Of a DNA stretch of 64,000 nucleotides, positions 1-64,000 are shown one piece after another; the first letter of the stretch is position 1, and the number at the start of each line of letters is the position of its first letter. Below the pieces are notes generated by a model. It had not been told where the DNA came from and did not search any database. It saw only the letters and a list, made by a program, of their open reading frames with translations. The position numbers and the translations under genes are program-made. Where the stretch lies: the IMG/VR virus record IMGVR_UViG_2675903278_000002; one strand, written 5' to 3'. The stretch is from a virus (Duplodnaviria; Heunggongvirae; Uroviricota; Caudoviricetes).

Positions 1-26
1 GGTGGTTCAAACTGGCTACGGTTACC

Positions 27-3000
27 ATGCCACAAGCGAGTTCCATCGTTTACATCGCATTGATTGGTGGCGCTGGTTACAACGTCGGTTCCCCACATCA
101 GGCAGGCATTTCAGAACTGGTTCTACGAGCAGGCAATGGAAACCCCAAAGGAATTACCGGGGCTTTGTGGAAGCGTACAGCCGTCGGATTAACGAATTTC
201 GCCTGGATCAACACATCCGGCGATACATATGATATTTACGTTGAGATTGGCAATTATGCGACGAGTGTAAATATCCATTGGGATTGTACTGCAAATGCGA
301 CAGTTTCTATTTATACATCGCCAACATATTCAGCGAGTAAGCCTTCCAGCGTTACCGATGGTGTTGTTTATACGATGTATAGCACACATCAGAAACCGAC
401 GCCGTTAGATATTGGAGCACTGCCAACAACCGGAGGAACAGTTTCAGGTCCGTTGTCTGTTACAGGTGGATTAACTGGTTCATTGAATGGTAATGCAAGT
501 ACAGCCACGAAATTGCAGACGGCAAGAACTATCGGCGGCGTGAGCTTTGATGGTACTGCGAATATTAATTTGCCAGGTGTTAATACGACTGGTAATCAGA
601 ATACAACGGGCAACGCTGCAACCGCTACAAAACTACAGACAGCGCGTACAATCAACGGTGTTAAGTTTGATGGTTCTGCGGACATAACGCTGACTCCTGC
701 GAACCTTGACGTATACAGCAAAAGCGAAATAGACAATAAAAAAGGGATGAGAAAATACACTTTTTCAGCGCCTGCAAATGCAGTAAGCGGTAAGTGGTAT
801 CCTATAGTCTTTCGCCGATCTGGAGGCAATACCGATGAATTAGCCTCACGAGTTGTGATAACTACTTATTCCTCAGCTGGCGGATACGCCATGAATAATT
901 GTGAATTTAATGGGTTTGTTATGCCTGGCGGTTGGTCTGATCGCGGTTCATATGCGGCTGGTTTTTTCTCAATATATTCTACTGCTGAGCGAGCTATACA
1001 CTCGATTATTTCAGGTGTGAAAGATGACGATTTGTGTAGTGTATTTTACGTTGAAGCCAGAGCATTCCCTATCAAGATATTTGCTGAGGAGGGCTTGAAC
1101 GTAATTGTTCCAACGGCTGATTATGCAGTTGGTCAAACCACTTATAAGTGGGGGGCAACTGATCCTTTATCAGAAAGTACGAATGCACAGATAATTTTGG
1201 ACTTTAAAAATGGACGAGGTTATTACTGTTCACATCCATTTATTTCAAGTCTTTCAGGAAATGCTGCTACAGCAACGAAATTGCAGACTGCAAGAACTAT
1301 CGGCGGCGTGGCCTTCGATGGATCTGCGAACATAAATTTGCCTGGTGTAAACACGGCAGGTAATCAGAATACAACGGGCAACGCGGCTACTGCTACGAAG
1401 TTGCAAACAGCGAGAAACATCAATGGTGTTAAGTTTGATGGCTCAGGCGATATCAACATTAATACACTGGTATCTCGTGGCCGAGTTACGGCGTTAAGCG
1501 GCTCTACTCAAGGCACTGCTGGCATTCAAATGTATGAGGCGTACAACAATAGCTACCCGACCATGTATGGCAACGTATTGCACATGAAAGGTGCGAGTGC
1601 TTCTGGTGAGGGCGAGATGCTTGTTGGCTGGAGCGGAACGGATGGTGCTCATGCACCGGTTTATGTTCGTTCACGCCGTGATACTTCGACAGCGAACTGG
1701 TCTGGCTGGGCGCAGATCTACACAACTGCTCATAAACCCACAGCGAAAGATGTTGGGGCCGCGCAAGCGTTTAGCGCGTCTTACAGCACAGGGGCTGGCA
1801 ATTGGACTACCGCTGAATTTATCGCATGGCTGAAGGAGCGTGGTGCTTTCGAAGTGCCGTACTGGATGATGAAGGGTTCCTGGTCATATGCCGACAATAA
1901 AATTATCACTGATACAGGTGTCGGCAATATCTGTCTTGCTGGTGCGGTTATCGAGGTTTTAGGTACCGAAGGCGCAATGACCATCCGAGTTACTACGCCT
2001 ACAACGACGACCGGTGGTGGGATTGCCTGTGCTCAGTTCACCTATATTAATCACGGTAGCGCGTATGCCCCTGCCTGGCGCAGAGATTACAACACGACTC
2101 TCAAACCCACTGCGGCTGATGTCGGTGCGTTGCCGAGCGGTGGCGGCACACTTTCCGGCGCACTCACATTATCTATGGCTGCGCCAAGTGTCCAGTTACG
2201 AGGGCAAGGTACGGACACCAGACAGTACATCATGGCTTACAGAACCGATGGCGCTACATCATGGTATGTGGGCAAGGCTAACAACGGCTCCGATAATGCG
2301 ATGTTCTGGAACTATACCGGCTCCAACGGAATTGAATTGGCTGCCGATGGCAATGTGCGTATTAATGCGAAGGGTAAACAGTTTACGTTCGCAAACAATG
2401 GGAACTTAGGTCTTGTTGCTTCGTTGGATCAGAGTTCAGTTCCACAGGGTACTTACCATCAAGTAGCTCTTAACACTGGCACTGTTGGTGGTAAATCGTA
2501 CCTTCGAAAATTCCGCGGCGGCAACACAGACACCATTTGGCATGAGACGGTTCAGGGCGGCTTCCTTCGTTGGGCAACCGGCAATGCTGATGAGCAAGAA
2601 GAACTGTCTATCAGTACTGGCTATGGTGTTCGAGCAAGAGGTGAAATCACTTCCCTTAGCGCCAATGGTCTAAGAGTGGCTTACGGGAATTACGGCTTCT
2701 TTATTCGCAATGATGGCGGAACAACTTACTTCTTGCTGACTGCTTCTGGCGACAAGTTCGGAAGCTGGAATGCTTTGCGTCCAATGTACATTAACAACGC
2801 TTCAGGCGCGGTTACGATGGGGAACGGGTTGTCGCTTGCCGGTGGCTTAAATGTCACGAGCGGAAATATCCGAATCCCGACGTCGAGTACATCTTGGATC
2901 GACATGAGAAACAATGCCGCTCTGTCTAACAGTTCTGCGGTTGCCACTTCCTCTGCATCGGCCATTATTCGTCAGGAGCACGCCGATCGTCATTATTTTG

Positions 3001-3437
3001 TTGGTGGTTTAGGCAACTCTCAGTTCGGGTTCTACATGATTAACAAGTCACGAACCGCGAACGGCACGGATGCGAACGCATACCTCCAGAATGACGGTAC
3101 TTGGGTTTGCGGCGGTAATGGCAGCTTTAATGACGTTTATATCCGTTCTGACCGCCGTAGTAAGCGCAATATTCGCAAGATTGACCGGGCGCTCGACAAG
3201 CTGGAGCAGATCGAAGGTGTTCTCTACGAGATTCAGGTCTGTGGCCGTTATGAGCAGTCTGGTGGCCTCATCGCTCAGGATGTCCAGAATGTTCAACCTG
3301 AACTGGTAACGGTCGACCATAACGATCAGTCAGGAGAGCCTCGTCTGCGTCTTAACTACAACGGCGTTATCGGCATGTTGGTTGAGGCTGTCAAAGAGTT
3401 GCGCGAGGAAGTGCGCGAACTGAAGGCAAAAATGTAA
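27..3437 (+). CDS. Phage tail fiber protein with fiber repeats and C-terminal intramolecular chaperone (peptidase S74-like) domain; reading frame is open upstream to the window edge, so probably 5' partial
   Basis: 1136 aa ORF; duplicated NAATATKLQTARTIGGV(S/A)FDG(T/S)ANINLPGVNT motif typical of phage tail fiber repeats; C-terminal SDRRSKRNI ... LVEAVKELREEVRELKAKM resembles the autoproteolytic chaperone domain of endosialidase and L-shaped tail fibers; no stop codon between position 3 and the ATG at 27. Confidence 0.8.
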   Translation: MPQASSIVYIALIGGAGYNVGSPHQAGISELVLRAGNGNPKGITGALWKRTAVGLTNFAWINTSGDTYDIYVEIGNYATSVNIHWDCTANATVSIYTSPTYSASKPSSVTDGVVYTMYSTHQKPTPLDIGALPTTGGTVSGPLSVTGGLTGSLNGNASTATKLQTARTIGGVSFDGTANINLPGVNTTGNQNTTGNAATATKLQTARTINGVKFDGSADITLTPANLDVYSKSEIDNKKGMRKYTFSAPANAVSGKWYPIVFRRSGGNTDELASRVVITTYSSAGGYAMNNCEFNGFVMPGGWSDRGSYAAGFFSIYSTAERAIHSIISGVKDDDLCSVFYVEARAFPIKIFAEEGLNVIVPTADYAVGQTTYKWGATDPLSESTNAQIILDFKNGRGYYCSHPFISSLSGNAATATKLQTARTIGGVAFDGSANINLPGVNTAGNQNTTGNAATATKLQTARNINGVKFDGSGDININTLVSRGRVTALSGSTQGTAGIQMYEAYNNSYPTMYGNVLHMKGASASGEGEMLVGWSGTDGAHAPVYVRSRRDTSTANWSGWAQIYTTAHKPTAKDVGAAQAFSASYSTGAGNWTTAEFIAWLKERGAFEVPYWMMKGSWSYADNKIITDTGVGNICLAGAVIEVLGTEGAMTIRVTTPTTTTGGGIACAQFTYINHGSAYAPAWRRDYNTTLKPTAADVGALPSGGGTLSGALTLSMAAPSVQLRGQGTDTRQYIMAYRTDGATSWYVGKANNGSDNAMFWNYTGSNGIELAADGNVRINAKGKQFTFANNGNLGLVASLDQSSVPQGTYHQVALNTGTVGGKSYLRKFRGGNTDTIWHETVQGGFLRWATGNADEQEELSISTGYGVRARGEITSLSANGLRVAYGNYGFFIRNDGGTTYFLLTASGDKFGSWNALRPMYINNASGAVTMGNGLSLAGGLNVTSGNIRIPTSSTSWIDMRNNAALSNSSAVATSSASAIIRQEHADRHYFVGGLGNSQFGFYMINKSRTANGTDANAYLQNDGTWVCGGNGSFNDVYIRSDRRSKRNIRKIDRALDKLEQIEGVLYEIQVCGRYEQSGGLIAQDVQNVQPELVTVDHNDQSGEPRLRLNYNGVIGMLVEAVKELREEVRELKAKM
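481..700 (+). repeat. Copy 1 of an approx 210 bp intragenic duplication in the tail fiber gene (second copy at 1260..1470)
   Basis: Near-identical nucleotide and peptide segments encoding GNA(S/A)TATKLQTARTIGGV.FDG.ANINLPGVNT.GNQNTTGNAATATKLQTAR.INGVKFDGS. Confidence 0.7.
1260..1470 (+). repeat. Copy 2 of the tail fiber intragenic duplication
   Basis: Direct comparison with 481..700 in the sequence. Confidence 0.7.
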
Positions 3438-3503
3438 TCAAGGTGAATGGTGAGGGGCCACCCTCACCAATTCAGGATATTCACATCAAAAAGGAGATTA
3501 GAT

Positions 3504-4286
3504 GTGCCAATTGTCGGTGTTCCCGGTTGGATTGGGTCTTCGGCTGTCAGTGTGACAGGCCAGAGATGGATGAGTGCGGCTCGAACGGCGGTGCAACTGC
3601 CAGCGGCTGGTTCAATGTCTCAAATGGCCGGGCGATCTAAAGAAGTTCAGTACAGCATCGGTGCGAATCATAACTACAACAAAGACACACTGATCAACTA
3701 TTTAAAATCCCAGGGGGCGACGCCAGTCGTTGTTACCATTACAGGGGATCTGGTGTCGTCCAGTAGCGGCGTGCCATGTTTAGATTTCCCGAGTTCACTT
3801 ACCAACTCTTATATCAGCCTTGTAATCAACGCAGGTGTGACTGTCTATGGACGCGGTGGCAATGGTGGTAGTAACGCTGCCGGTGCTGCTGGTGGTAACG
3901 CAATTAATAATGGCATCGGTACACGCTTGCGTATTACGAATAATGGTGCAATCGCTGGAGGTGGTGGCGGCGGTGGCGGTGGTAACAGGGGTAAACTAAT
4001 ATTTGGTGGTGGCGGTGGTCGCCCATTCGGTGCTGGTGGGTCTTCCTCTCATATGAGTTCCGGTGCAACTGCTGGTACTATTTCCGCTCCTGGTAAAGGA
4101 TCTGTTGGTGAGGGGTCTCTTAGTGCATATACAGGCGGTTCGGGTGGTAATGTCGGTGCTGCTGGAGGAAGATGTAATACTCAAGGTAACGGTACAGAAT
4201 ATAACGGCGGGGCAGCTGGTAAAGCCGTAACTGGCAACGCGCCTACATGGACTAAAGCTGGGGCAATTTACGGCGCTCATGTGTAA
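3504..4286 (+). CDS. Glycine-rich hypothetical protein, possibly tail-fiber associated; proposed GTG start
   Basis: ORF 3447..4286; AAGGAG at 3491..3496 sits 7 nt upstream of GTG 3504; long poly-Gly tracts (GGGGGGGGGN, GGGGG); lies between tail fiber and lysis genes. Confidence 0.45.
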   Translation: MPIVGVPGWIGSSAVSVTGQRWMSAARTAVQLPAAGSMSQMAGRSKEVQYSIGANHNYNKDTLINYLKSQGATPVVVTITGDLVSSSSGVPCLDFPSSLTNSYISLVINAGVTVYGRGGNGGSNAAGAAGGNAINNGIGTRLRITNNGAIAGGGGGGGGGNRGKLIFGGGGGRPFGAGGSSSHMSSGATAGTISAPGKGSVGEGSLSAYTGGSGGNVGAAGGRCNTQGNGTEYNGGAAGKAVTGNAPTWTKAGAIYGAHV

Positions 4287-4360
4287 GTACTTACCTACCA
4301 AGTGTGGGCGTTTTATGATATAAAACCGCCATCCCGATTTGACTTTTCATGGAGGAAAAC

Positions 4361-4684
4361 ATGTCGAACGAGATGGCGGGCGTTACAACAGAGCAAGTTG
4401 AGCGTATTGCCGCGATCGTTGCTCGGGAGGTTGTTGGCAAATTAGGTAAAGAGCTACGTGAAGAAATTGGCCAGGAGGTCAATGATCAGCTGAAAACCTA
4501 CTTTGGTGATATGACCCCGGCGCAACATAGTATTCAACACTCCAATCTGGACAAACTCCTTAACCGGTTAGATTCCATCTCAAGTGGGTTCTTTGGCGGC
4601 ATTGTTTCTAAAATAACGTCGTTCATTATTACCGCACTGCTTTTGGGGTTAGCCGCGTATGGCGTAAAAAGTGGACTGCAATAA
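4361..4684 (+). CDS. Small membrane protein, holin candidate
   Basis: GGAGG RBS before ATG 4361; hydrophobic C-terminal segment ITSFIITALLLGLAAYGV; immediately upstream of the putative endolysin. Confidence 0.4.
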   Translation: MSNEMAGVTTEQVERIAAIVAREVVGKLGKELREEIGQEVNDQLKTYFGDMTPAQHSIQHSNLDKLLNRLDSISSGFFGGIVSKITSFIITALLLGLAAYGVKSGLQ

Positions 4685-4697
4685 CAGGAGATCAAGG

Positions 4698-5390
4698 ATG
4701 AAAACTCCGAGAGGCATTCGTAATAACAACCCTGGCAACCTCGACAAAGGTTCGCCGTGGCAGGGGCTAATCGACAACCCTGCCGAACCGCGCTTTTGCA
4801 CGTTTAAAGACCCTGTTTGGGGGATTCGTGCGCTGGCGGTGACTCTAATTACCTACCACGACAAACGTCGCGCAAAAGACGGCTCAAGTATCGATACCAT
4901 TCGTGAAGTTATTGAACGTTGGGCACCGCCGAATGAAAACAATACTGACGCCTACATTAATGAGGTGTCTAAAGCCGTTGGTGTAACCGCAGACATGATT
5001 ATCGATCTGCATGATTACGACATTCTTCGACCTTTGGTTGAGGCAATCATTCGCCATGAGAATGGGCGAGGTCCGCTAAAAACGCTGAACACCTGGTATG
5101 CGGCAGAAGTTATTGAGGAAGGTCTGCGTCGAGCTGGCGTTGTTAAGCCGGCGAAAACCGTGAAGGCTGTTCCTGTAACTAAAGAAACCGCAGGCGCAAC
5201 TGTTACAGCAGGTATTGGTCTGGCGCAGCTGGCCGATGTTATGCCGCAGGTTTCCGCTGCTATGGATAAAGCACAAGGTCATATCTCTAGCGGGGATACA
5301 GTACGCATCATCTTCGGTATTGCCACTATTGTTGTGGCAGGATTCATTGCCTGGTCGCAGGTAAGAAAACACCAGAAAGGGATGGTCTAA
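4698..5390 (+). CDS. Putative endolysin or peptidoglycan hydrolase (family not assigned)
   Basis: AGGAG RBS before ATG 4698; N-terminal GIRNNNPGNL motif; gene order small membrane protein - this gene - i-spanin - o-spanin matches a canonical lysis cassette; C-terminal hydrophobic segment is atypical. Confidence 0.45.
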   Translation: MKTPRGIRNNNPGNLDKGSPWQGLIDNPAEPRFCTFKDPVWGIRALAVTLITYHDKRRAKDGSSIDTIREVIERWAPPNENNTDAYINEVSKAVGVTADMIIDLHDYDILRPLVEAIIRHENGRGPLKTLNTWYAAEVIEEGLRRAGVVKPAKTVKAVPVTKETAGATVTAGIGLAQLADVMPQVSAAMDKAQGHISSGDTVRIIFGIATIVVAGFIAWSQVRKHQKGMV

Positions 5391-5391
5391 T

Positions 5392-5643
5392 ATGCTAGGC
5401 AGCCTGATGACAAAGCTAAAAGTTGCTTTGATTACGCTGGCTGCCGTTCTTTTCGTTCTTGTCGGCGCTTACACGATGGGCGGGAATGCGGCGCGACGAG
5501 CAATGGAAGAGAAGGCAAAACAGGAAGACAGAAAACGACTTCAAAACACAGTGAAAGTGGTGAATGAGACGAGCAGTAAAATACGTCAGAAAGATGCTTC
5601 TGCCGTTCATCGTGAGTTGTATGATAAGTGGGTGCGTCATTAA
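5392..5643 (+). CDS. i-spanin (Rz-like inner membrane spanin subunit)
   Basis: N-terminal transmembrane helix LKVALITLAAVLFVLVGAY followed by a charged coiled-coil-like region; start overlaps the upstream stop; contains the o-spanin gene in another frame. Confidence 0.6.
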   Translation: MLGSLMTKLKVALITLAAVLFVLVGAYTMGGNAARRAMEEKAKQEDRKRLQNTVKVVNETSSKIRQKDASAVHRELYDKWVRH

Positions 5644-5779
5644 ACCACAAACAGCCAGCGTGTTGTTCTGCGATGGGGCTGAGCCTATCTATATCAGCAA
5701 TAATGATGTAATGACTGAAGAAACCGAACGCCAAATCCTTTTTCACAATACGATGGGAGAGAGGGTTTGTGGTTGGTGA
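5594..5779 (+). CDS. o-spanin (Rz1-like outer membrane lipoprotein), overlapping the 3' end of the i-spanin gene
   Basis: MLLPFIVSCMISGC signal peptide with lipobox cysteine; out-of-frame overlap with 5392..5643, the classic Rz/Rz1 arrangement. Confidence 0.55.
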   Translation: MLLPFIVSCMISGCVIKPQTASVLFCDGAEPIYISNNDVMTEETERQILFHNTMGERVCGW

Positions 5780-6333: not shown

Positions 6334-6340
6334 GAGTAAA

Positions 6341-6610
6341 CTACTCCATGCTTTTCAGACGATCAGCAGCTCGTTTCAGCTTGTCGTTCGGTGCCGGAGG
6401 ATTGCTTATAGCGTCCATAACCAGATTCCAGGATTCTTCATTCAGAACTAGTCTACGGTGTTGCTCTATAACTTTCACGGCACGTTCAGATGCACTGCTA
6501 ACCATAAACTGAGTAATGCTCTGGTTAGACATTGCGGCAGCTTCCTCGATGATGCTTTTATCGTCATCGGTTAATCTCAAATCGATGCGCTGCTTTTTTA
6601 GTGCTGACAT
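6341..6610 (-). CDS. DUF1778 (TacA-like) ribbon-helix-helix antitoxin
   Basis: MSALKKQRIDLRLTDDDKSIIEEAAA... matches DUF1778 antitoxins; GGAGG RBS before the ATG at 6610; 7 nt gap to the toxin gene. Confidence 0.7.
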   Translation of the reverse strand: MSALKKQRIDLRLTDDDKSIIEEAAAMSNQSITQFMVSSASERAVKVIEQHRRLVLNEESWNLVMDAISNPPAPNDKLKRAADRLKSME

Positions 6611-57700: not shown

Positions 57701-57729
57701 TCGGCGCGGCGCTTGATTCAGGAGTTTAT

Positions 57730-58323
57730 ATGACGACGAAGACACCAGCCCGATCGCAAGAAAAAACTCGCAAAAAAGCCAAAAACAAAAATTCTCCCCG
57801 CACCAATTCCACAACGCCTGTCGTAGAGTTCAATCCCCAGCTTAAAACCGTGAAAATCTTCAGTGATGGCTCTTGCCTTAAAAATCCGGGTGGCCCGGGC
57901 GGTTACGGTATAGTTCTCCAGTATCGTGGTGAGGAACGCGAGTTCTCAGATGGTTTTCATAGCACCACCAATAACCGCATGGAGATGATGGGGGCACTTA
58001 TCGGGCTGGAGCGTTTGAAATATCCATGCAACGTTATTTTGCACTCTGATAGCCAGTATCTGAAAAACGGCATGACACAGTGGATGAAATGGTGGAAACG
58101 CAATGGATGGGTGACTTCTGACAAAAAACCGGTAAAGAATGTTGATCTGTGGAAGCGTCTGGATGAGGCTGCAAGTCGACATAATGTTCGCTGGAAGTGG
58201 GTTAAAGGTCACGCCGGGCATCGTGAAAATGAAATATGTGATCGACTCGCGAAGATCGCAGCTTTTTCCGCAGCAGATATGCCTCACAAGAAAGATATTG
58301 GTTTTGTTTACAACAAGCAGTAA
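57730..58323 (+). CDS. rnhA: Ribonuclease HI
   Basis: RNase H motifs [43 protein letters not shown]; AGGAG RBS before ATG 57730; basic N-terminal extension. Confidence 0.85.
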
Positions 58324-58468
58324 GTAAGTGTTTACCTATCATTTTAAATCATGTATCTTATCAGCGTCAGGATGACAATGTGTCGGTAAGACACAGTTCC
58401 AGGATGGAACGAGAAAGGCGGCTGGCAATCGCCAGCCGCAACTCTTTCTGACACTGGATGGAGTCCAC

Positions 58469-58963
58469 ATGGCACGTCAAACCTATTTCACTTCTGCAAC
58501 TAAACGTCCTCGTTCACTACGTCAAATTTTGGCCGAATTATTTAGCGGTCGTGTTCTGTCACGTCTTGATGAACTAGAGACTGCCGTTCGGTTGCTGAAT
58601 GAACGTTTAGATAAGCAAGCGTCAGTTGTTGCGAACGTGGGGGCGATTGTTACCTCTGGTTCTTCACGCGAAGCGAAAAGTACACGGCCTTTAGTGAAGG
58701 AGAAAAACAACAAGGACAGTTCGAATGGAAAATTTTCAAAGAAAGAGGCTGAAACCAATGGCCTACGTTCTCATTATAGTTTCACTGGCGACGATAGCCG
58801 TTCCAGCCGGCCAGAGCCTTTTGATGCCGGGTTCATCCATCACCACACCTCCGTCGACGACAATTACCACCACTCCAGTAGAGCGTCCTGTCACTCTGGA
58901 TGGGATGACGGTGGATGCGATACCTCAAGTTCATCCAGTTACTCAGGATCATGCTGTGACTAA
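58469..58963 (+). CDS. Hypothetical protein (C-terminal half low-complexity; true extent uncertain)
   Basis: 164 aa ORF; overlaps an alternative frame encoding a signal-peptide protein (58758..58976). Confidence 0.25.
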   Translation: MARQTYFTSATKRPRSLRQILAELFSGRVLSRLDELETAVRLLNERLDKQASVVANVGAIVTSGSSREAKSTRPLVKEKNNKDSSNGKFSKKEAETNGLRSHYSFTGDDSRSSRPEPFDAGFIHHHTSVDDNYHHSSRASCHSGWDDGGCDTSSSSSYSGSCCD

Positions 58964-58972
58964 GGCGGTTGT

Positions 58973-59161
58973 ATGAACTGGTTTTCAAATCACTTTGGAA
59001 AAATTTGGCTGGCAATTCTTGCCCTCATGGCCGCCGGTTGGGTATCGAACATTATAAAACTTGTTTGCTCTGGCGATCTCCAGTTTCAGGCTGGTATGAC
59101 CTTGGCTCGTGTTGTTGGGATTTTTGTTTTTCCAGTTGGTTCGGTACTTGGTTATTTCTGA
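58973..59161 (+). CDS. Small membrane protein
   Basis: 62 aa with two hydrophobic segments; ATGA start/stop overlap. Confidence 0.3.
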   Translation: MNWFSNHFGKIWLAILALMAAGWVSNIIKLVCSGDLQFQAGMTLARVVGIFVFPVGSVLGYF

Positions 59162-59254
59162 CGGCTGTTAGTGCATATGCATTGACCATCTCTGCGTAAG
59201 CAATTTATGTAATTAGAAAACAACTTGTTTTGACAAATAATAAAAGGAAAACAC

Positions 59255-59680
59255 ATGTTAGGTTTCTTCAAAAAGAAAACTCGTAAAGCTGTTATCGAAG
59301 TCAAAAAAATGGAGAACCGTGATGCGGTTGAGGCCACCGTGTGGGGCGCGTACATGATCTCCTATGCCGACGGCACATGTGACGCAAAAGAAATTGCCAT
59401 TCTTGAGAAGACAATTGCAGCTCTGCCTGCGTTTTCTCCGTTTGCTGGTGAAATTGCCCAAATGAGCGCCAATATCCGTGCTCGTTACGAAGCGTCCCCT
59501 CGTTCTGCTAATGCACAGGCTATTCGTGAGCTGTCTGATATTGCGGGTACTCCAGAGGCGGTCGATGTTCTGTGTCTGTGCCTTGATATTGCCGACCAAG
59601 ACGGTATTGGCGAACAAGAAGAGCTGGCCCTGAAAAAGATCGCACAGGCGCTTCAGTTGTCACTGGATGCTTATCTCTAA
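59255..59680 (+). CDS. Hypothetical protein, possibly TerB-like
   Basis: 141 aa; segment VDVLCLCLDIADQDGIGEQEELALKKIAQALQL resembles TerB-type helical domains; GGAAAACACATG start context and upstream AAACAACTTGTTT palindrome. Confidence 0.4.
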   Translation: MLGFFKKKTRKAVIEVKKMENRDAVEATVWGAYMISYADGTCDAKEIAILEKTIAALPAFSPFAGEIAQMSANIRARYEASPRSANAQAIRELSDIAGTPEAVDVLCLCLDIADQDGIGEQEELALKKIAQALQLSLDAYL

Positions 59681-59838
59681 TGCTTGAGAGATTCCGGCTT
59701 GTGACCGTCATTGCTCTTCTGGTGATGGCGGTGTTGGTGGATTTTACGGGAAAGATGATGTCTGTCATTTCTGATGGCGTCCTCATTGGTCTGGCGATCT
59801 ACTTCGCTTATCCGCTAGTCCGTAAAGCAACGTGTTAA
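59680..59838 (+). CDS. Small membrane protein (52 aa), not in ORF track
   Basis: ATG overlapping the upstream stop; two hydrophobic segments; followed by a terminator. Confidence 0.3.
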   Translation: MLERFRLVTVIALLVMAVLVDFTGKMMSVISDGVLIGLAIYFAYPLVRKATC

Positions 59839-59841
59839 TGA

Positions 59842-59870
59842 CAAGGGCCAAATGGCCCTTGTGTTTCGTT
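59842..59870 (+). terminator. Rho-independent terminator
   Basis: CAAGGGCC-AAAT-GGCCCTTG followed by TGTTTCGTT. Confidence 0.65.
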
Positions 59871-59977
59871 GACCGAAATAGAGAGTTTGCACCTTTACGT
59901 TTAGCTTGCTCCCCTTTTATGCCACATCACAATAAAGCCAATAAGAAAACAACTTGTTTAAGCATTAGGAAAAACAC

Positions 59978-60547
59978 ATGTGCAAGAAATGCAAAGCGAT
60001 AGCTGATGAACAAAACGCCTTATTCGAAGAAATGGATGCTAATGAACTGGTCAAAATGTTAGCCATTCTTCGAGGAATAGAAGACGTTTCCATATTTGAG
60101 AGAGTGGTTACAGCACTTAATTTTGAGTCCACCTTTGAAGAGCCAACTCAGGTTGTAGCTTTAGCACATCATTTCGGTGTTCATTATCTTGCTGAAAAAG
60201 AGCGCGCTGATAAGTTGCAGGCGACTTTGGATATGGTGAGCGAGACTCAACGAACTGATGACACTAACAAGAGTGAGGCGATTATTGCCAGCAAAGATCG
60301 TGAAATTGCTGGGCTTAAATCCTCTCTAACGATGTTGATGTCTGCGTTCAATCTTATGTCTTCTCAGGCGGGTTATAAAATGCCATCACTAAACAGCGAT
60401 GATCCGATGGCCGTTCGTCAGCTTTTGGGAGCAATGGCCGACCAACTCGACGACACAAAGAGTCGGCTTGAAGACATGATGCGTGAGTTAAGCCATCGAC
60501 ATAACCTCGCAACACAGCCACACAAAGCCTTTCAAAGCTCTAATTGA
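59978..60547 (+). CDS. Hypothetical protein
   Basis: 189 aa ORF with GGAAAAACACATG start context. Confidence 0.5.
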   Translation: MCKKCKAIADEQNALFEEMDANELVKMLAILRGIEDVSIFERVVTALNFESTFEEPTQVVALAHHFGVHYLAEKERADKLQATLDMVSETQRTDDTNKSEAIIASKDREIAGLKSSLTMLMSAFNLMSSQAGYKMPSLNSDDPMAVRQLLGAMADQLDDTKSRLEDMMRELSHRHNLATQPHKAFQSSN

Positions 60548-60602
60548 TCTGATATGGCCGCATGATCGGCCATATTGTGTTGATAAAAAACAAGGATGAA
60601 AA

Positions 60603-60884
60603 ATGGCATACGGTACAGGGATTTACAACAATAAAGGAATTAACGTTACTGGCTTCCTTACTCCTATTTTTTTTCTTGATCGATTTACTGCGTCATCAGG
60701 CTCTAAGACGTACTCCAATCCGCCACCGGGTAAATCGCTACATGCCGTGTGGTCATTGATGCCTCTTAACAACGACAACTACATTAATTTACCTGTTCCA
60801 ACAGTTACTATTAATGGAAATACGGTTAGTTGGTCAAATTTATATACGGGGCTTGGTTCTTACATATACACATACTGGGGATAA
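60603..60884 (+). CDS. Hypothetical protein
   Basis: 93 aa ORF in an AT-rich segment. Confidence 0.35.
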   Translation: MAYGTGIYNNKGINVTGFLTPIFFLDRFTASSGSKTYSNPPPGKSLHAVWSLMPLNNDNYINLPVPTVTINGNTVSWSNLYTGLGSYIYTYWG

Positions 60885-60886
60885 TT

Positions 60887-61501
60887 ATGTTCGGGATGTC
60901 AATTACTCAATCAGATGGAAGTTTGTGGATGAGTCCAGAATTTACTCCGCAAAATCTGATTAATAAAGGGACAATGTCTACATCTAAAGGTTCTGTTTTT
61001 CAAACATCAATCCCATCAAACAAATCATGCTTTTTCTTCATAAAAAGCAGTAATAAGGCGAACATGATGTTTATTCATGAGCATAGTAACGGATACAATG
61101 CTCTCAGATTGCATCAGGTAAATGGTAGCCCCGGAACAATAACAGTTTATGCTTTTTCTGATATGGTGTTACCACATTCTGGCTATGGCATTGCCATGTA
61201 TAACAGCGCAGGCGCAATGGTGTATCACGGTGAGATGATGCCCCTTGATGCGAAACTTATCACTATTTCTGACCCTCAATTTACAATAGATATGGGGTAT
61301 CCATGTGCGGTAATGCCTGCTATGGTTGGGGTATATAACTATAGACGAACCGATTACGACAGACCTGTCTATGTAACAATGACAGGTGCAACTGGAAACC
61401 AAGTATATAACGGTCAATGGTATTCCGGTAATGTCACATGGGATATTAAGAAGATTTATACAAACAAAATTCTGGTGATAAATACCTCCAAGTATGATTA
61501 G
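60887..61501 (+). CDS. Hypothetical protein (possibly secreted or membrane)
   Basis: ORF 60830..61501; ATG 60887 follows a GGGGA RBS and the upstream stop; AT-rich. Confidence 0.4.
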   Translation: MFGMSITQSDGSLWMSPEFTPQNLINKGTMSTSKGSVFQTSIPSNKSCFFFIKSSNKANMMFIHEHSNGYNALRLHQVNGSPGTITVYAFSDMVLPHSGYGIAMYNSAGAMVYHGEMMPLDAKLITISDPQFTIDMGYPCAVMPAMVGVYNYRRTDYDRPVYVTMTGATGNQVYNGQWYSGNVTWDIKKIYTNKILVINTSKYD

Positions 61502-61604
61502 CCAATGCCTTTATTTGAAGGATTGCCTGTTTATTTCTATTTAGTACCTTTTCATTTTTGAAATAATTGCACCATTAAACAAATCACTTCTTAATGGTGC
61601 AATT

Positions 61605-63290
61605 ATGAATACAGCCCTTTCCATCATCGACGATGCCAACTCAAACACTGCTATCGACTATCGGCAGGAAATGAACGTCATCCACGAAATTGTGGCCGAG
61701 TGCGAGAAAGAGATCGCCTTCATGTATCAGGTACACGACTTCGTTTATGGCGACGAACGCCACAACATGATTAATCGCCTGCTGAGACTAAACCATCGAC
61801 CAGATGAAGATCGCTCGCGTTTAAATCGAGGTTGGTTGGATAAAGTCGATCTGGAATGGGTGAAACAGAATATTTGGGCCGAGTACTGGAGGAAGGTCAC
61901 GGACATGACTAACGTTTTGCTGATCATGCCAGCTTCCCGTCGAGATGAGTGGCGCGAGCAGTTTATAGAGGGCAAACAGGAAGTCATCAAAACTGACAGA
62001 ACCGGCTACCAGATGAAGGTTAAAGAGTTCGTTGGTGTACCGGAGTTCAAAGCAGAAACGGTCATACCCACGATGCTTAATTTGCTGAATGACAGGCACA
62101 AATATCTCTCTGAGCGCGTGTATGGCTTGTTTAAGGCGCTGAGTCCTGCGCACAAGACAAATAAGACAAACGGTTTCAGCGAACGTCTGATAATCGCTGA
62201 CTGCATTTCTGATTTCTGGCGGGACAGCGTTAGTGTGAACTATCGCAAAGAGGACTATATCGACGATCTGCGTGTCTTGCTTCATTTCTTCGCGCACAAA
62301 GAATTTATTACCATCAACCGCACTGCTGAGGTGCTATCAGCTGCGTATCGGGCAAACGACTGCCAGACCGGTGACTGGATGAACGTCGATGGAAATCTAA
62401 TGCGCGTGAAGATGTTCAAGAACGGCAACGTTCACTTTGAAATACATCCTGACGTGGCCTGGAAGTTGAATGAGGTGCTGGCTTACAGTATGCCTGCTGC
62501 AATCCCCGCGCCATGTCGCACCGCGCCAAAAACACGGGCACCAAAGCAGTTCGGGTTAATCCAGAAGACGATCTCCGTGCCGGTTCGCACTGCGCTTCGT
62601 GACGGGCGATTAAGCAAAGACAAAGGCGTATGGTACTTCTCTGATTCAGCTCTCCAGAAGTCGCAGGTGGAAGAGCTTGAGCGCACACTGAGCTTCATTG
62701 GCGGCGTGCAGGAGAAAAAGCACTGGCAGTTCCCGTATGAGATCGGCCATACGCTAAATACGATTGTGGCTACCGGATTAATACCGGATACAAAATCACA
62801 CCAGTTCTACCCTACCCCACGCTTGATTGCTGAGTACGTTGCCAGAGCCACTGAATTGAAGTCTGGTGAGAAGCTGCTGGAGCCTCAAGCCGGACGTGGG
62901 GATCTTCTGGCCTATATCAACGCCGATCTGGAAGATGTTACCTGCATAGAAATCGCACCTCTCTTCGCTGATATCCTGCGCGGAAAAGGGTATACGAACA
63001 CGATTTGCTGCGACTTCATAAAGTGGTCTGAGGACAACGTAGGTTATCAGTTCGACAAAATCGTTATGAACCCGCCGTACTCGCTTGGTCGTCATAGAGA
63101 GCACACGCTGGCTGCGCTGGGGCATCTGAAAGTCGGCGGGCGTCTTGTAGCAGTATTGCCGGGCACTGCGCCAATACTGGACTGGATGACGATGGATAAT
63201 TACGTTTATGCCAGAGGGAAGTCGTTTACCAACGAGTTTGAAGACACAGGGATCACAGTCAGCGTATACGTTTTCAAACGCGTTAAATGA
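61605..63290 (+). CDS. Large protein with C-terminal DNA methyltransferase domain (N6-adenine or N4-cytosine class) and an uncharacterised N-terminal domain of about 400 aa
   Basis: C-terminal SAM-binding-like LEPQAGRGDL and catalytic NPPYS. Confidence 0.55.
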   Translation: MNTALSIIDDANSNTAIDYRQEMNVIHEIVAECEKEIAFMYQVHDFVYGDERHNMINRLLRLNHRPDEDRSRLNRGWLDKVDLEWVKQNIWAEYWRKVTDMTNVLLIMPASRRDEWREQFIEGKQEVIKTDRTGYQMKVKEFVGVPEFKAETVIPTMLNLLNDRHKYLSERVYGLFKALSPAHKTNKTNGFSERLIIADCISDFWRDSVSVNYRKEDYIDDLRVLLHFFAHKEFITINRTAEVLSAAYRANDCQTGDWMNVDGNLMRVKMFKNGNVHFEIHPDVAWKLNEVLAYSMPAAIPAPCRTAPKTRAPKQFGLIQKTISVPVRTALRDGRLSKDKGVWYFSDSALQKSQVEELERTLSFIGGVQEKKHWQFPYEIGHTLNTIVATGLIPDTKSHQFYPTPRLIAEYVARATELKSGEKLLEPQAGRGDLLAYINADLEDVTCIEIAPLFADILRGKGYTNTICCDFIKWSEDNVGYQFDKIVMNPPYSLGRHREHTLAALGHLKVGGRLVAVLPGTAPILDWMTMDNYVYARGKSFTNEFEDTGITVSVYVFKRVK

Positions 63291-63351
63291 TAGGTAAATA
63301 CTTACCTAATTTGTGTAAGAATGTAGTTACTAAACGATAAGAGAAAAACAC

Positions 63352-64000
63352 ATGAACAACCTCCAGTTAGAGCATTTTAACGTCACAGGCCATTCTGATT
63401 TTCCTTTCAAGTTTACATTGAAAGGTTATGCAGAGGATGCGGTAGGCCAGATCATTATTGATAAAGGCATCGTTAAGTTTGAGGGGGATTTTGATGAATC
63501 CGCGAAAACATTCATAGACTTCGTTGCCAAACGTTGGAGCGAGCAATGGAAAAACCTGGAAAAGCGCGCCAATGAGTTTGATCGGTTCATGGATGCAATG
63601 GATACAGCAAAAGAGGCTCTTGATGCCGGGACTCCGTTAGATCTGGAGTCACTTTTCAACGGCGAAGTGGCCTCTGCGATGTTCGCCACCATGTTCGCGG
63701 GTGAGTTCGTCCGCAGCGGTGCCAAAAACTACCTTGAGCTGGATTACAACGTCCCTGCAATTGGCGATTTCGTCGTTACCATCCAACGCAAAGAAGGTAA
63801 GACGCCAGGTGAACGCGTCGCAGAACTTGAGGCTGTTGTGGATCAGCGTAACGGAGAGTGTGACCGTTTGATCAACGAGCTTCATGCACTTCGGGAAGAA
63901 AGAATATGCGCGGGTAGCAATACACGTAATGCAGCGGATATCTACTTCCAGTTAGTTGAGGAATGCCAGATTCCACCAGGCGGCTCTCTTGTCGATTACG
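63352..64000 (+). CDS. Hypothetical protein, 3' partial (runs off the window)
   Basis: Open frame from ATG 63352 to the window end with GAAAAACACATG start context; absent from the ORF track, presumably because no stop lies in the window. Confidence 0.45.
   Translation, partial: MNNLQLEHFNVTGHSDFPFKFTLKGYAEDAVGQIIIDKGIVKFEGDFDESAKTFIDFVAKRWSEQWKNLEKRANEFDRFMDAMDTAKEALDAGTPLDLESLFNGEVASAMFATMFAGEFVRSGAKNYLELDYNVPAIGDFVVTIQRKEGKTPGERVAELEAVVDQRNGECDRLINELHALREERICAGSNTRNAADIYFQLVEECQIPPGGSLVDY

What the first reader, a model, noticed from the sequence alone, without database searches (positions are those of the whole stretch)
1..64000. Window reads as an SSU5/pHCM2-like phage-plasmid: plasmid maintenance modules interleaved with phage structural, lysis and replisome genes
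A single replicon segment carries ParA/RHH partition, an iteron-flanked RepA origin and a toxin-antitoxin pair (plasmid lifestyle) together with tail fiber, spanins, DnaB/primase/ligase, DNA polymerase III alpha, gp32-like SSB, RecA, SbcCD, NrdAB, ThyA, DHFR and CobS/CobT-like genes (virulent-phage-like replisome). That combination is the hallmark of the SSU5 supergroup of enterobacterial phage-plasmids.
Basis: partly seen in the sequence, partly recalled or inferred. Interest (0 to 1): 0.55.

Follow-up and report, generated by a model that had tools for sequence, protein, structure and literature searches.

The report
E. coli SSU5-type phage-plasmid segment

Summary
The window matches Escherichia phage Cyrano (pLF82) at 97-99% nucleotide identity over about 87% of its length. 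It also matches ~110-kb non-mobilizable IncFIB E. coli plasmids, and SSU5 at about 80% identity over about 65%. Of 66 ORFs of at least 80 aa, 59 have a Cyrano homologue, 51 an SSU5 homologue and 53 a pHCM2 homologue, in almost perfectly conserved order. Every named gene was confirmed by profile searches, except that the "RHH" fold of ParA's partner could not be shown.

Refinements:
- **Subgroup:** the backbone belongs to the E. coli pSLy3/Cyrano branch of the SSU5 supergroup (95-98% aa), not the Salmonella SSU5_pHCM2 branch (80%).
- **Replicon:** RepA is nevertheless pHCM2-like (91-92%) and only 50% identical to pSLy3's initiator.
- **Thymidylate synthase:** it is ThyA, although Cyrano's record says ThyX.
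- **DHFR:** it passes NCBI's DfrA51 cut-off.
- **Cargo:** a T-even-type gp38 adhesin, a KAP-NTPase (PADLOC PDC-S49), a YafO toxin module, a PDC-M06 pair and a cspA-type gene with its thermoregulator.

No record in the collections searched holds this exact mosaic, but each cargo block I searched for occurs elsewhere at 99% identity or more. This is a known kind of element, of low interest.

The parts
1..3437 (+). Distal tail-fibre gene, cut by the left edge of the window. It is mosaic, with T-even gp34/gp37-type trimerisation domains and a C-terminal S74 intramolecular chaperone.
   Evidence: Pfam Gp34_trimer 2.5e-25, gp37_trimer and Peptidase_S74. The frame is open from base 3. Different stretches match different phages.
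3447..4286 (+). gp38-type tail-fibre adhesin (receptor-recognising protein) of T-even type
   Evidence: Pfam GP38 4.7e-70 and Gp38_N. It is 100% identical to the protein in NZ_CP020118. It occurs on 87 plasmids, mostly ~110 kb and non-mobilizable.
4349..5779 (+). Lysis cassette: putative holin (4349-4684), endolysin (4671-5390), Rz i-spanin (5392-5643) and the overlapping Rz1 o-spanin lipoprotein (5564/5594-5779)
   Evidence: PHROG endolysin 9.4e-88 and Rz-like spanin 7e-25. Hydrophobic segments and lipobox ISGC. 93-96% aa identity to SSU5/pHCM2. The holin has no family support, only its position and one hydrophobic segment.
5812..6649 (-). Type II toxin-antitoxin pair of TacT/TacA (GNAT/DUF1778) type
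   Evidence: Pfam Acetyltransf_1/7 and TacA1 8.6e-26. Present in Cyrano (KacT) but absent from SSU5, pHCM2 and pSLy3.
6929..7956 (+). Partition operon: a small ParA ATPase (6929-7597) and a 119-aa partner (7597-7956), presumed to be the centromere-binding protein
   Evidence: Pfam MipZ, AAA_31, CbiA and ParA. NCBIfam ParA_partition 1.9e-33, below its cut-off. The partner has no known family, and RHH was not shown.
8008..9714 (+). Cargo gene: KAP-family P-loop NTPase, a candidate single-gene defence protein (PADLOC PDC-S49). GC is 31%.
   Evidence: Pfam KAP_NTPase 7.7e-06. PADLOC PDC-S49 1.5e-21. GC 0.313. Absent from Cyrano, SSU5, pHCM2 and pSLy3 but present in NZ_CP020118.
9887..15992 (+). 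Replisome block 1: a 249-aa unknown protein, DnaB-like helicase (10680-12020), primase (12030-13280), two unknown proteins, and ATP-dependent DNA ligase (14670-15992)
   Evidence: Pfam DnaB_C, Toprim_2/DNAG_N and DNA_ligase_A_M. Collinear with SSU5_038-044.
17580..18139 (+). tRNA cluster: Asn(GTT), Thr(TGT) and Ser(TGA)
   Evidence: ARAGORN and Rfam tRNA
18416..20841 (+). Variable island: a 193-aa protein shared with pHCM2, glutaredoxin (19469-19717), a 202-aa protein of unknown family (19813-20421) and a YafO-family toxin (20431-20841)
   Evidence: Pfam Glutaredoxin and YafO_toxin 4.7e-22. PHROG 13546. The YafO part occurs at 99.5% identity in other ~110-kb E. coli plasmids.
21015..22499 (.). 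Tyrosine recombinase (21015-22118, +) and a divergent HTH regulator, the putative lysogeny repressor (22113-22499, -)
   Evidence: Pfam Phage_integrase and HTH_19 (weak). Cyrano CYRAN_44/45. Absent from SSU5.
23062..26501 (+). CobT-like VWA protein and CobS-like AAA+ ATPase
   Evidence: Pfam CobT, CobT_C 2.5e-83 and AAA_5. TIGR01650 scores far below its cut-off.
26682..30200 (+). DNA polymerase III alpha subunit (DnaE-type)
   Evidence: Pfam PHP, DNA_pol3_alpha 8.9e-74, finger and HHH_6
30479..31897 (-). Cargo: a CspA-family cold-shock gene with its full cspA 5'-UTR thermoregulator (30479-30897), and a PADLOC PDC-M06B (31049-31648) plus PDC-M06A (31673-31897) pair
   Evidence: Rfam RF01766 185.7 bits. 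Pfam CSD 1.3e-33. PADLOC 1.6e-32 and 1.2e-19.
32151..36075 (+). Recombination block: UvsY-like mediator, gp32 SSB, 5'-3' flap exonuclease, a 90-aa ORF and RecA
   Evidence: PHROG UvsY-like (weak). Pfam gp32, 5_3_exonuc_N and RecA 2.2e-42.
38818..41014 (-). Plasmid replicon: RepA (39303-40358, -) with iteron arrays on both sides. A downstream array lies at 38818-39300. Two upstream origin-like modules lie at 40396-40641 and 40797-41014, each with 21-bp-spaced iterons, a GATC cluster and a DnaA(-like) box.
   Evidence: Pfam Rep3_N and Rep3_C. Repeats. Pattern enrichment of 20 matches against about 0.15 expected for this 2.1-kb span. DnaA box at 40633-40641. GATC clustering. Relatives typed IncFIB.
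42001..46544 (+). SbcD (42001-43086), SbcC (43316-45232), a 247-aa unknown protein and a RuvC-like resolvase (45975-46544)
   Evidence: Pfam Metallophos, AAA_23, SMC_N and SbcC_Walker_B. PHROG RuvC-like 3e-57.
46618..53936 (+). Nucleotide-supply block: NrdA, NrdB, MazG-like, ThyA (51274-52404), PNKP-like phosphatase, DHFR/DfrA51 (52816-53292) and a P-loop kinase-like protein
   Evidence: Pfam. NCBIfam thymidylate synthase and DfrA51, 338.2 bits against a cut-off of 322.
54427..63290 (+). Late part of the DNA-metabolism region: epsilon-like 3'-5' exonuclease (54427-54984), Dam-type N6-adenine methyltransferase (56136-56729), RNase H (57676-58323), TerB/TciA-like protein (59255-59680) and a DUF4942 methyltransferase-like protein (61605-63290), with unknown proteins between them
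   Evidence: Pfam RNase_T, Dam, RNase_H, TerB and DUF4942. PADLOC MTase_II and mad2 for the C-terminal half of the DUF4942 protein.
63352..64000 (+). Ead/Ea22-like gene, cut by the right edge of the window
   Evidence: Open frame to base 63999. Corresponds to CYRAN_91.

Best explanation
The window is about 64 kb of a roughly 110-kb temperate siphovirus that is maintained as a low-copy circular plasmid. It is an SSU5-supergroup phage-plasmid of the E. coli pSLy3/Cyrano(pLF82) lineage.

**In lysogeny (inferred from the gene set, and from experiments on the 98%-identical Cyrano):**
- RepA binds the iterons of an IncFIB-type origin. The origin has a DnaA box and GATC clusters, and iteron arrays on both sides of repA would set copy number as in P1 and RepFIB.
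- ParA and its small partner segregate the copies.
- The tyrosine recombinase probably resolves multimers.
- The TacT/TacA and YafO modules penalise loss of the element.
- An HTH repressor keeps the lytic genes off.

**On DNA damage:**
- The element switches to its own replisome: DnaB, primase, Pol III alpha, an epsilon-like exonuclease, ligase, RNase H and FEN.
- It also uses T4-like recombination proteins (gp32, UvsY-like, RecA, SbcCD, RuvC-like) and its own dNTP supply (NrdAB, ThyA, DHFR, MazG-like).
- It packages DNA into siphovirus particles. The head and tail genes lie just outside the window.
- It lyses the cell with a holin, endolysin and Rz/Rz1.

Host range is set by a swappable tail-fibre tip with a T-even-type gp38 adhesin. 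Between the conserved blocks sit exchangeable cargo genes: a KAP NTPase, the PDC-M06 pair, a cspA-type gene and the toxin modules.
For: **DNA similarity**
- 97-99% identity to Cyrano, CMS-2020a and PhiR41_1, about 80% to SSU5, and 76-80% to Klebsiella SSU5-like phages.
- Nine E. coli genomes hold at least 80% of the first 25 kb. The best-matching records listed are all 106-121 kb.
- The nearest one is circular, non-mobilizable and IncFIB.

**Synteny**
- 59, 51 and 53 of 66 ORFs have homologues in Cyrano, SSU5 and pHCM2.
- The order is essentially perfect: longest collinear runs of 58/59, 49/51 and 52/53.

**Subgroup**
- Mean aa identity on 45 shared ORFs is 95.0% to pSLy3, 98.5% to Cyrano and 79.8% to both SSU5 and pHCM2.

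**Gene functions**
- Pfam, PHROG and NCBIfam assignments.

**Origin anatomy**
-.

**Published experiments on Cyrano (PMC9928086)**
- About 5.5 plasmid copies per cell.
- Virion DNA 32-fold above background.
- 39-fold induction by ciprofloxacin.
- Siphovirus particles seen by electron microscopy.

**Family definition**
- From PMC7969092 and PMC12977533.
Against: - Only the distal tail fibre and the lysis genes of the virion module are in the window. The terminase, portal, capsid and tape-measure genes cannot be checked here, so this particular element could be defective.
- The repressor, the multimer-resolution role of the recombinase, the holin and the copy-control role of the downstream iterons are inferred from position and analogy, not shown.
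- No centromere repeats were found near parA.
- The partner of ParA has no recognisable fold or family.
- Formal typing (tyPPing profiles or wGRR) was not run.
Confidence: 0.93

Rival explanations
1. The element is a member of the Salmonella-type SSU5_pHCM2 group proper, which is the literal reading of the finding's title, rather than of the E. coli pSLy3/Cyrano group.
For: - RepA is 91-92% identical to the SSU5 and pHCM2 RepA but only 50% identical to the pSLy3 initiator.
- The 193-aa protein at 18416-18997 is shared with pHCM2 only.
- Profiles of the pSLy3, pKpn and SSU5_pHCM2 types cross-match, so the boundary between them is soft (PMC12977533).
Against: - On 45 shared ORFs the mean aa identity is 95.0% to pSLy3 and 98.5% to Cyrano, against 79.8% to SSU5 and pHCM2.
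- Nucleotide identity to SSU5 is only about 80%.
- All close relatives are from E. coli.
Confidence: 0.1
2. It is a decayed, plasmid-only derivative. It keeps the SSU5-like backbone genes but no longer makes infectious particles, as was reported for a Klebsiella SSU5-like plasmid.
For: - The structural and packaging genes are outside the window and could not be inspected.
- A Klebsiella SSU5-like plasmid was reported to behave in an unexpected way rather than as a simple intact prophage (abstract of PMC8969562).
- tyPPing notes that defective and hybrid elements are common.
Against: - Within the window, every conserved gene is full-length and 94-100% identical to its Cyrano counterpart. This includes the lysis cassette and the tail-fibre tip with its adhesin.
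- No IS elements or pseudogenes were seen in the window.
- Cyrano does produce virions.
Confidence: 0.15
3. It is a chromosomally integrated prophage, or a virulent phage with an accidental resemblance to plasmids.
For: - A tyrosine integrase is present.
- 795 of 1948 matching places in E. coli genomes are on chromosomes.
Against: - Those chromosomal matches are short and involve shared pieces. The 9 genomes that cover at least 80% of the query, and the best-matching records listed, are 106-121-kb replicons.
- A Rep3 initiator with about 20 iterons, ParA and toxin-antitoxin modules are plasmid functions.
- pHCM2 and NZ_CP020118 are typed as IncFIB plasmids.
Confidence: 0.02

Closest known systems
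Escherichia phage Cyrano (= plasmid pLF82 of AIEC strain LF82; OV696614)
   Same: - 97-99% nucleotide identity over about 87% of the window.
- 59 of 66 ORFs shared at 98.5% mean aa identity and in the same order.
- The same RepA (100%), ParA, TacAT-type pair, cspA-type gene, PDC-M06 pair, integrase and repressor, replisome and nucleotide genes.
   Different: - The tail-fibre C-terminus and the gp38 adhesin differ.
- The window has a KAP NTPase where Cyrano has an 804-bp hypothetical gene.
- The 18.4-20.8 kb island differs: YafO toxin, the 202-aa protein and the 193-aa protein.
- Cyrano's RecA carries a 422-aa intein in the Walker A motif that the window lacks.
- Cyrano's record labels ThyA as ThyX, the ParA partner as RelE/ParE and the PDC-M06 pair as HicAB. 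None of these labels was supported here.
pSLy3 (CP015915), the type element of the E. coli pSLy3 group of the SSU5 supergroup
   Same: The backbone is 95.0% identical in aa on 45 shared ORFs and collinear. The DHFR is the same (99%) and is annotated there as dfrA51.
   Different: - pSLy3 has a RepB-family initiator only 50% identical to the window's RepA, next to an IS91.
- It carries a type I R-M system and a group II intron where the window has the SPFH and DUF7238 genes.
- It lacks the TacAT pair, the KAP NTPase, the cspA/PDC-M06 block and gp38.
- It has four tRNAs, including Tyr, where the window has three.
Salmonella phage SSU5 (JQ965645) and S. Typhi plasmid pHCM2 (NC_003385), the SSU5_pHCM2 group
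   Same: - The same architecture and gene order from the tail fibre through lysis, parA, the replisome, CobT/S, Pol III alpha, recombination, RepA/iterons, SbcCD, NrdAB, ThyA, DHFR and the DUF4942 protein.
- RepA is 91-92% identical.
- pHCM2 is typed IncFIB.
   Different: - About 80% identity at both the nucleotide and aa level.
- SSU5 lacks the integrase, the repressor and glutaredoxin.
- Both lack the TacAT pair, gp38, the KAP NTPase, the YafO module, the cspA-type gene and the TerB-like gene.
- Different cargo sits in the same slots, for example DUF2971 after parAB.
P1 oriR / RepFIB-type iteron replicons (what the plasmid origin works like)
   Same: - A Rep3-family initiator gene flanked on both sides by arrays of short iterons, with 21-bp spacing upstream.
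- A DnaA box and a cluster of GATC sites next to the iterons.
- A Dam-type methyltransferase encoded by the element itself.
   Different: - The upstream origin-like module (iterons, GATC cluster, DnaA-like box) is present twice, 381 bp apart.
- No functional test of either copy was possible.
- The comparison with the P1 and RepFIB layout rests on my own knowledge of those replicons, not on an alignment made here.

Membership tests
SSU5 supergroup of phage-plasmids (Pfeifer et al. 2021, PMC7969092) | Large shared gene repertoire with SSU5/pHCM2-type elements (wGRR-type similarity; common persistent genome) | tested here: met
   51 of 66 ORFs (SSU5) and 53 of 66 (pHCM2) have homologues covering at least 60% of their length, at about 79-80% mean aa identity. 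The order is conserved. wGRR itself was not computed.
SSU5 supergroup of phage-plasmids (Pfeifer et al. 2021, PMC7969092) | Plasmid replication and partition functions, mostly of IncFIB type | tested here: met
   Rep3 RepA with about 20 iterons and ParA. RepA is 92% identical to that of pHCM2, which is typed IncFIB. The nearest plasmid is also IncFIB.
SSU5 supergroup of phage-plasmids (Pfeifer et al. 2021, PMC7969092) | Siphovirus morphogenesis and packaging genes (terminase, portal, capsid, tape measure) | not testable with these tools
   These genes lie upstream of the tail fibre in SSU5, pSLy3 and Cyrano, which is outside the window. Only the distal tail fibre, the adhesin and the lysis genes are visible.
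SSU5 supergroup of phage-plasmids (Pfeifer et al. 2021, PMC7969092) | Extrachromosomal circular replicon of about 85-134 kb that also forms virions | not testable with these tools
   The window is a fragment. The best-matching relatives are 106-121-kb records, and the nearest is a circular plasmid. Virion production was shown for Cyrano only (PMC9928086).
pSLy3 group (E. coli branch of the supergroup) | Highest repertoire and sequence similarity to pSLy3-type elements; formal call by tyPPing signature profiles | tested here: inconclusive
   95.0% mean aa identity to pSLy3 against 79.8% to SSU5 and pHCM2 on 45 shared ORFs. This favours pSLy3, but RepA differs from the type element (50%) and tyPPing could not be run.
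SSU5_pHCM2 group proper | Closest similarity to SSU5 and pHCM2 among the supergroup's groups | tested here: not met
   SSU5 and pHCM2 are the more distant references (79.8% aa, about 80% nt) compared with pSLy3 and Cyrano. Only RepA is of pHCM2 type.
Type Ib plasmid partition system (small ParA plus a small RHH centromere-binding protein) | Small Walker-type ParA without an N-terminal DNA-binding domain | tested here: met
   222 aa, with the ParA/MinD-type P-loop domain starting at residue 2-4
Type Ib plasmid partition system (small ParA plus a small RHH centromere-binding protein) | Partner protein with a ribbon-helix-helix fold | tested here: inconclusive
   No Pfam, NCBIfam or PDB match. 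The AF2 monomer model (pLDDT 67) shows a disordered basic tail and helices at 48-59, 70-82 and 86-118. This is compatible with strand-helix-helix but does not show it. Foldseek found no hit.
Type Ib plasmid partition system (small ParA plus a small RHH centromere-binding protein) | Centromere made of repeats next to the operon | tested here: not met
   No convincing repeat array in 6600-8050. There is only a 12-bp perfect hairpin at 7958-7986, just after the operon, which may be a terminator.
TacT/TacA (GNAT/DUF1778) type II toxin-antitoxin | GNAT acetyltransferase toxin directly downstream of a DUF1778/TacA antitoxin | tested here: met
   Pfam Acetyltransf_1/7 and TacA1 8.6e-26. The genes are adjacent on the minus strand with an 8-bp gap. 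Activity was not tested.
DfrA51 trimethoprim-resistant dihydrofolate reductase | Score above NCBI's curated cut-off for the DfrA51 model; residues A6, I13, D26 and S48 shown to matter for resistance | tested here: met
   NF047324 scores 338.2 bits against a cut-off of 322. The protein is 90.5% identical to SSU5 DfrA51, and all four residues are kept (PMC12217456). The resistance phenotype of this allele was not tested.
Cobaltochelatase CobS/CobT | Orthology to the CobS and CobT subunits of aerobic cobaltochelatase | tested here: not met
   The CobS model TIGR01650 scores 84.8 bits against a cut-off of 558.55. The CobT Pfam domains are present. 'CobS/CobT-like' is therefore correct, but cobalt chelation is not implied.

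The most novel reading that the evidence does not exclude
The variable slots of this conserved backbone may be a dedicated cargo-exchange system for host-interaction genes.
- The slots considered are after parAB, after the tRNAs and after Pol III alpha.
- In this element they would carry two still-unvalidated anti-phage systems: a KAP-NTPase (PDC-S49) and the two-gene PDC-M06, which Cyrano's record labels HicAB.
- They would also carry a cold-inducible cspA-type gene whose thermosensor could tie expression of plasmid-borne genes to temperature.
- Together with the exchange of the RepA replicon between supergroup branches, this would make the element a natural test bed for defence-island turnover on phage-plasmids.
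Probability: 0.2. Interest if true: 0.4.

Novelty: already known. Interest (0 to 1): 0.15.

Why it matters
It matters little as a discovery. SSU5-type phage-plasmids are a described and common family. [quoted passage not shown]

The practical value is in annotation:
- The window should be labelled as an E. coli pSLy3/Cyrano-type phage-plasmid with an IncFIB pHCM2-like replicon.
- It carries a DHFR that NCBI's model calls DfrA51. Its SSU5 homologue raised the trimethoprim MIC when expressed in E. coli (PMC12217456).
- Several labels in the closest annotated record (ThyX, RelE/ParE, HicAB) should not be copied.

Tried and rejected
- **RHH fold of the ParA partner (7597-7956).** Pfam, PHROGs and NCBIfam gave no informative family. 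A PDB sequence search gave only chance-level hits (E about 1). The single-sequence AF2 model was of low confidence, and Foldseek against the PDB gave nothing below E = 3.8. The fold stays open.
- **Centromere repeats around parA.** None were found.
- **'HicA/HicB' labels from Cyrano.** The 74-aa protein has no Pfam HicA hit. The pair matches PADLOC PDC-M06A/B instead.
- **'ThyX' label from Cyrano.** Rejected, because the protein is ThyA (PF00303, TIGR03284).
- **'RelE/ParE toxin' label from Cyrano for 7597-7956.** No support.
- **Looking for the exact source record.** No record in the phage, PLSDB plasmid or complete E. coli genome collections covers more than 88% of the first 25 kb. The element is therefore a new mosaic of modules. 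Each module I searched for occurs elsewhere at 99% identity or more.
- **PADLOC on other unknown ORFs.** No hits for 9887-10636, 13359-14135, 14191-14673, 18416-18997, 19813-20421, 41102-41746, 45222-45965, 55143-55952, 58469-58963, 59978-60547 and 60830-61501.
- **My greedy ORF picks on the minus strand.** The picks at 5432-5812, 16243-16467 and 63426-63725, among others, are probably shadows of plus-strand genes and were not treated as genes.

Full report
**What was checked.** The finding is a whole-window classification: plasmid-maintenance modules interleaved with phage structural, lysis and replisome genes, read as an SSU5/pHCM2-like phage-plasmid. I tested four things: whether each named component is in the sequence, whether the window is related to and syntenic with SSU5-type elements, which branch of that family it belongs to, and what in the window is not backbone.

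**Similarity to known records.**
- Megablast of the three blocks of the window against GenBank phages gives Escherichia phage Cyrano as the best annotated relative: 67%, 99% and 100% coverage at 97.4-98.8% identity. Next come Escherichia phages CMS-2020a and PhiR41_1.
- Salmonella phage SSU5 matches at 79-82% identity over 41%, 85% and 72% of the blocks. Klebsiella SSU5-like phages match at 76-80%.
- Against PLSDB, the best records are ~106-121-kb non-mobilizable E. coli plasmids at 96-98% identity.
- Against complete E. coli genomes, nine genomes hold at least 80% of the first 25 kb, and the best-matching records listed are 106-121 kb. The nearest, NZ_CP020118, is circular, non-mobilizable and IncFIB.
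- No record covers more than 88% of the first 25 kb. The exact mosaic is therefore not in these collections.

**Gene-order test.**
- I called 66 non-overlapping ORFs of at least 80 aa and searched them by tblastn against Cyrano, SSU5, pHCM2 and pSLy3.
- 59 have a Cyrano homologue (98.5% mean aa identity), 51 an SSU5 homologue (79.0%) and 53 a pHCM2 homologue (79.9%).
- The longest collinear runs are 58/59, 49/51 and 52/53.
The refuting outcome, an unrelated lineage or a conjugative backbone, is excluded.

**Component check.** Profile searches confirm the following:
- Virion and lysis: tail fibre, endolysin and Rz-like spanin. An overlapping lipoprotein ORF with lipobox ISGC is the o-spanin.
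- Plasmid maintenance: a GNAT/TacA toxin-antitoxin pair, ParA and Rep3-type RepA.
- Replisome: DnaB, a primase (weak), ATP-dependent ligase, Pol III alpha, a 5'-3' exonuclease, an epsilon-like exonuclease and RNase H.
- Recombination: gp32, RecA, SbcD, SbcC and a RuvC-like resolvase.
- Nucleotide supply: NrdA, NrdB, a MazG-like protein, ThyA and DHFR.
- Other: tyrosine recombinase, an HTH regulator, CobT-like and CobS-like proteins, a Dam-type methyltransferase and a DUF4942 methyltransferase-like protein.
- Three tRNAs (Asn, Thr, Ser) lie at 17580-18139.

**The origin.**
- The iteron core CTMYAGTGGWT, with one mismatch allowed, occurs 25 times in the window. Twenty of these lie in 38869-41012, around repA. 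Chance would give 4.7 for the whole 64 kb, and no shuffle reached 25.
- Downstream of repA the copies lie in both orientations (38818-39300).
- Upstream there are two arrays with 21-bp spacing, at 40396-40525 and 40797-40906. Each is followed by a GATC-rich stretch and a DnaA or DnaA-like box.
- The 150-bp window richest in GATC in the whole 64 kb starts at 40941.

**The one part of the observation I could not confirm** is 'RHH' for the 119-aa ParA partner. No family or PDB match was found. The low-confidence AF2 monomer shows a disordered basic tail and three helices, and Foldseek returned nothing. Its position, its size and the small ParA make a type Ib centromere-binding protein the likely role, but the fold is open. 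No centromere repeats were found either.

**Which branch of the family.**
- The SSU5 supergroup comprises the SSU5_pHCM2, pKpn, pSLy3 and pMT1 groups (PMC7969092). pSLy3 is the E. coli group and SSU5_pHCM2 the Salmonella group (PMC12977533).
- On the 45 ORFs shared by all four references, identity is 95.0% to pSLy3 (CP015915), 98.5% to Cyrano and 79.8% to both SSU5 and pHCM2.
- The backbone is therefore pSLy3/Cyrano-type.
- RepA is the exception. It is 100% identical to Cyrano's and 91-92% to SSU5/pHCM2, but only 50% to the RepB-family initiator of pSLy3. The replicon has been exchanged within the supergroup, which fits the 'conserved phage, variable plasmid genes' picture in the literature.

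**What is not backbone.** Seven ORFs have no counterpart in Cyrano, and several more have none in SSU5, pHCM2 or pSLy3.
1. The tail-fibre C-terminus has T-even gp34/gp37 trimerisation domains and an S74 chaperone. It is followed by a gp38 adhesin (Pfam GP38, 4.7e-70). gp38 homologues occur on 87 PLSDB plasmids, mostly ~110 kb and non-mobilizable, from Enterobacter, Escherichia and Citrobacter. In the partial matches only the N-terminal part of the protein aligns.
2. A KAP-NTPase-like gene at 8008-9714 has 31% GC and matches the PADLOC candidate PDC-S49. The same slot after parAB holds other cargo in Cyrano, SSU5, pHCM2 and pSLy3.
3. At 18416-20841 there is a YafO-family toxin (4.7e-22) directly behind a 202-aa protein of unknown family. 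This part is 99.5% identical in other E. coli plasmids.
4. At 30479-31897 on the minus strand there is a 70-aa CspA-family gene with a full-length cspA thermoregulator (Rfam, 185.7 bits). Next to it is a PDC-M06A/B pair.

**How it most likely works.**
- *Shown by sequence:* the element has a complete iteron replicon and a partition ATPase, and toxin-antitoxin modules. It also has a self-sufficient replication, recombination and dNTP-supply set, and a lysis cassette.
- *Shown by experiment for the 98%-identical Cyrano:* about 5.5 plasmid copies per cell, spontaneous virion production, 39-fold induction by ciprofloxacin, and siphovirus particles (PMC9928086).
- *Inferred:* RepA-iteron initiation with copy control by the flanking arrays, as in P1 and RepFIB. 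ParA-driven segregation. Multimer resolution by the tyrosine recombinase. Repression by the divergent HTH protein. An SOS-triggered switch to the element's own replisome and T4-like recombination-dependent replication. Host range set by the gp38 adhesin.

**Corrections to existing annotation.**
- Cyrano's record calls the thymidylate synthase ThyX. It is ThyA (PF00303 at 2.3e-79; TIGR03284 above its cut-off) with internal insertions.
- The 'RelE/ParE toxin' (ParA partner) and 'HicA/HicB' labels found no support.
- The DHFR passes NCBI's DfrA51 model (338.2 bits against 322). It is 90.5% identical to SSU5 DfrA51 and keeps A6, I13, D26 and S48. PGAP already names the 99%-identical pSLy3 protein dfrA51.
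- SSU5 DfrA51 raised the trimethoprim MIC when expressed in E. coli (PMC12217456).

**Verdict.** The refinement is that this is an E. coli pSLy3/Cyrano-type member of the SSU5 supergroup with a pHCM2-like IncFIB replicon. It is a known and common kind of element. The specific mosaic is new to the collections I searched, but the cargo blocks I searched for occur elsewhere almost unchanged. Interest is low.

Noticed in passing
window 30479-30897 (-): There is a full-length match to the Rfam cspA thermoregulator (185.7 bits against a gathering score of 78), with a 70-aa CspA-family (CspB/G/I-like) coding sequence at 30504-30716. The element therefore carries a cold-shock gene complete with its RNA thermosensor. 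The region is present but unannotated in Cyrano, and absent from SSU5, pHCM2 and pSLy3.
   Followed up: partly
window 31049-31897 (-): A two-gene pair matches the PADLOC candidate defence system PDC-M06: the 74-aa A protein at 1.2e-19 and the 199-aa B protein at 1.6e-32. Cyrano's record labels the pair HicA/HicB, but the small protein has no Pfam HicA hit. PHROGs names the large one 'excisionase and transcriptional regulator'.
   Followed up: partly
window 8008-9714 (+): This is a KAP-family P-loop NTPase-like gene with 31% GC, against about 46% for the window. It matches the PADLOC single-gene candidate PDC-S49. It sits in a slot after parAB that holds different cargo in every reference: an 804-bp hypothetical gene in Cyrano, DUF2971 genes in SSU5 and pHCM2, and a GIY-YIG protein in pSLy3.
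   Followed up: partly
window 19813-20841 (+): A YafO-family toxin (136 aa) lies 10 bp behind a 202-aa protein with no Pfam, NCBIfam or PADLOC family (PHROG 13546, function unknown). That protein is twice the size of the usual YafN-type antitoxin, so it may be an undescribed antitoxin.
   Followed up: partly
window 3447-4286 (+), with 1-3437: A T-even-type gp38 adhesin follows a fibre that ends in gp37-type trimerisation and S74 chaperone domains, on a siphovirus phage-plasmid. gp38 homologues are on 87 PLSDB plasmids, mostly ~110 kb, from Enterobacter, E. coli and Citrobacter. The partial matches cover only the N-terminal part of the protein, which suggests a common host-range cassette in this family.
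   Followed up: partly
window 52816-53292 (+): The backbone DHFR scores above NCBI's curated cut-off for trimethoprim-resistant DfrA51. It keeps the four residues reported to matter for resistance. It is 90.5% identical to the SSU5 reference protein and 99% to the pSLy3 protein that PGAP annotates as dfrA51.
   Followed up: yes
window 39303-40358 (-) versus L009 26358-27572 (pSLy3): The replicon has been exchanged. The backbone is 95% identical to pSLy3, but RepA is only 50% identical to pSLy3's RepB-family initiator, which sits next to an IS91. RepA is 91-92% identical to SSU5/pHCM2 RepA.
   Followed up: yes
window 40396-41014: The origin-like module upstream of repA is present twice, 381 bp apart. 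Each copy has 5-6 iterons at 21-bp spacing, a GATC cluster and a DnaA or DnaA-like box. The second GATC cluster is the densest in the whole window, and the element encodes its own Dam-type methyltransferase at 56136-56729.
   Followed up: partly
L001 33066-34001 plus L002 1-1404 (Cyrano recA), versus window 35002-36075: Cyrano's RecA is 779 aa because a 422-aa intein-like insert sits inside the Walker A motif (GPPSAGK|T). The insert begins with Cys, contains a LAGLIDADG-type motif and ends in His-Asn before Thr. The window's allele is intein-free (357 aa).
   Followed up: partly
window 17580-18139: The tRNA content varies within the family. The window and Cyrano have Asn, Thr and Ser. pSLy3 and NZ_CP020118 have Asn, Tyr, Thr and Ser. 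SSU5 has Asn only.
   Followed up: no
window 51274-52404 (+): ThyA is about 100 residues longer than the usual 264 aa. It matches the profiles in 2-4 separate stretches, so it carries internal insertions. These are conserved in SSU5 and pHCM2 (85% aa).
   Followed up: no
window 4671-5390 (+): The endolysin (PHROG 873) has a hydrophobic segment at its C-terminus (residues 208-231). The putative holin has a single hydrophobic segment at its C-terminus and belongs to no known family. The lysis cassette may therefore not follow the textbook holin-endolysin layout.
   Followed up: no
window 7958-7986: There is a perfect 12-bp inverted repeat (TATATTGGGCGT / ACGCCCAATATA, 5-nt loop) directly after the partition operon. 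It could be a terminator or a binding site.
   Followed up: no
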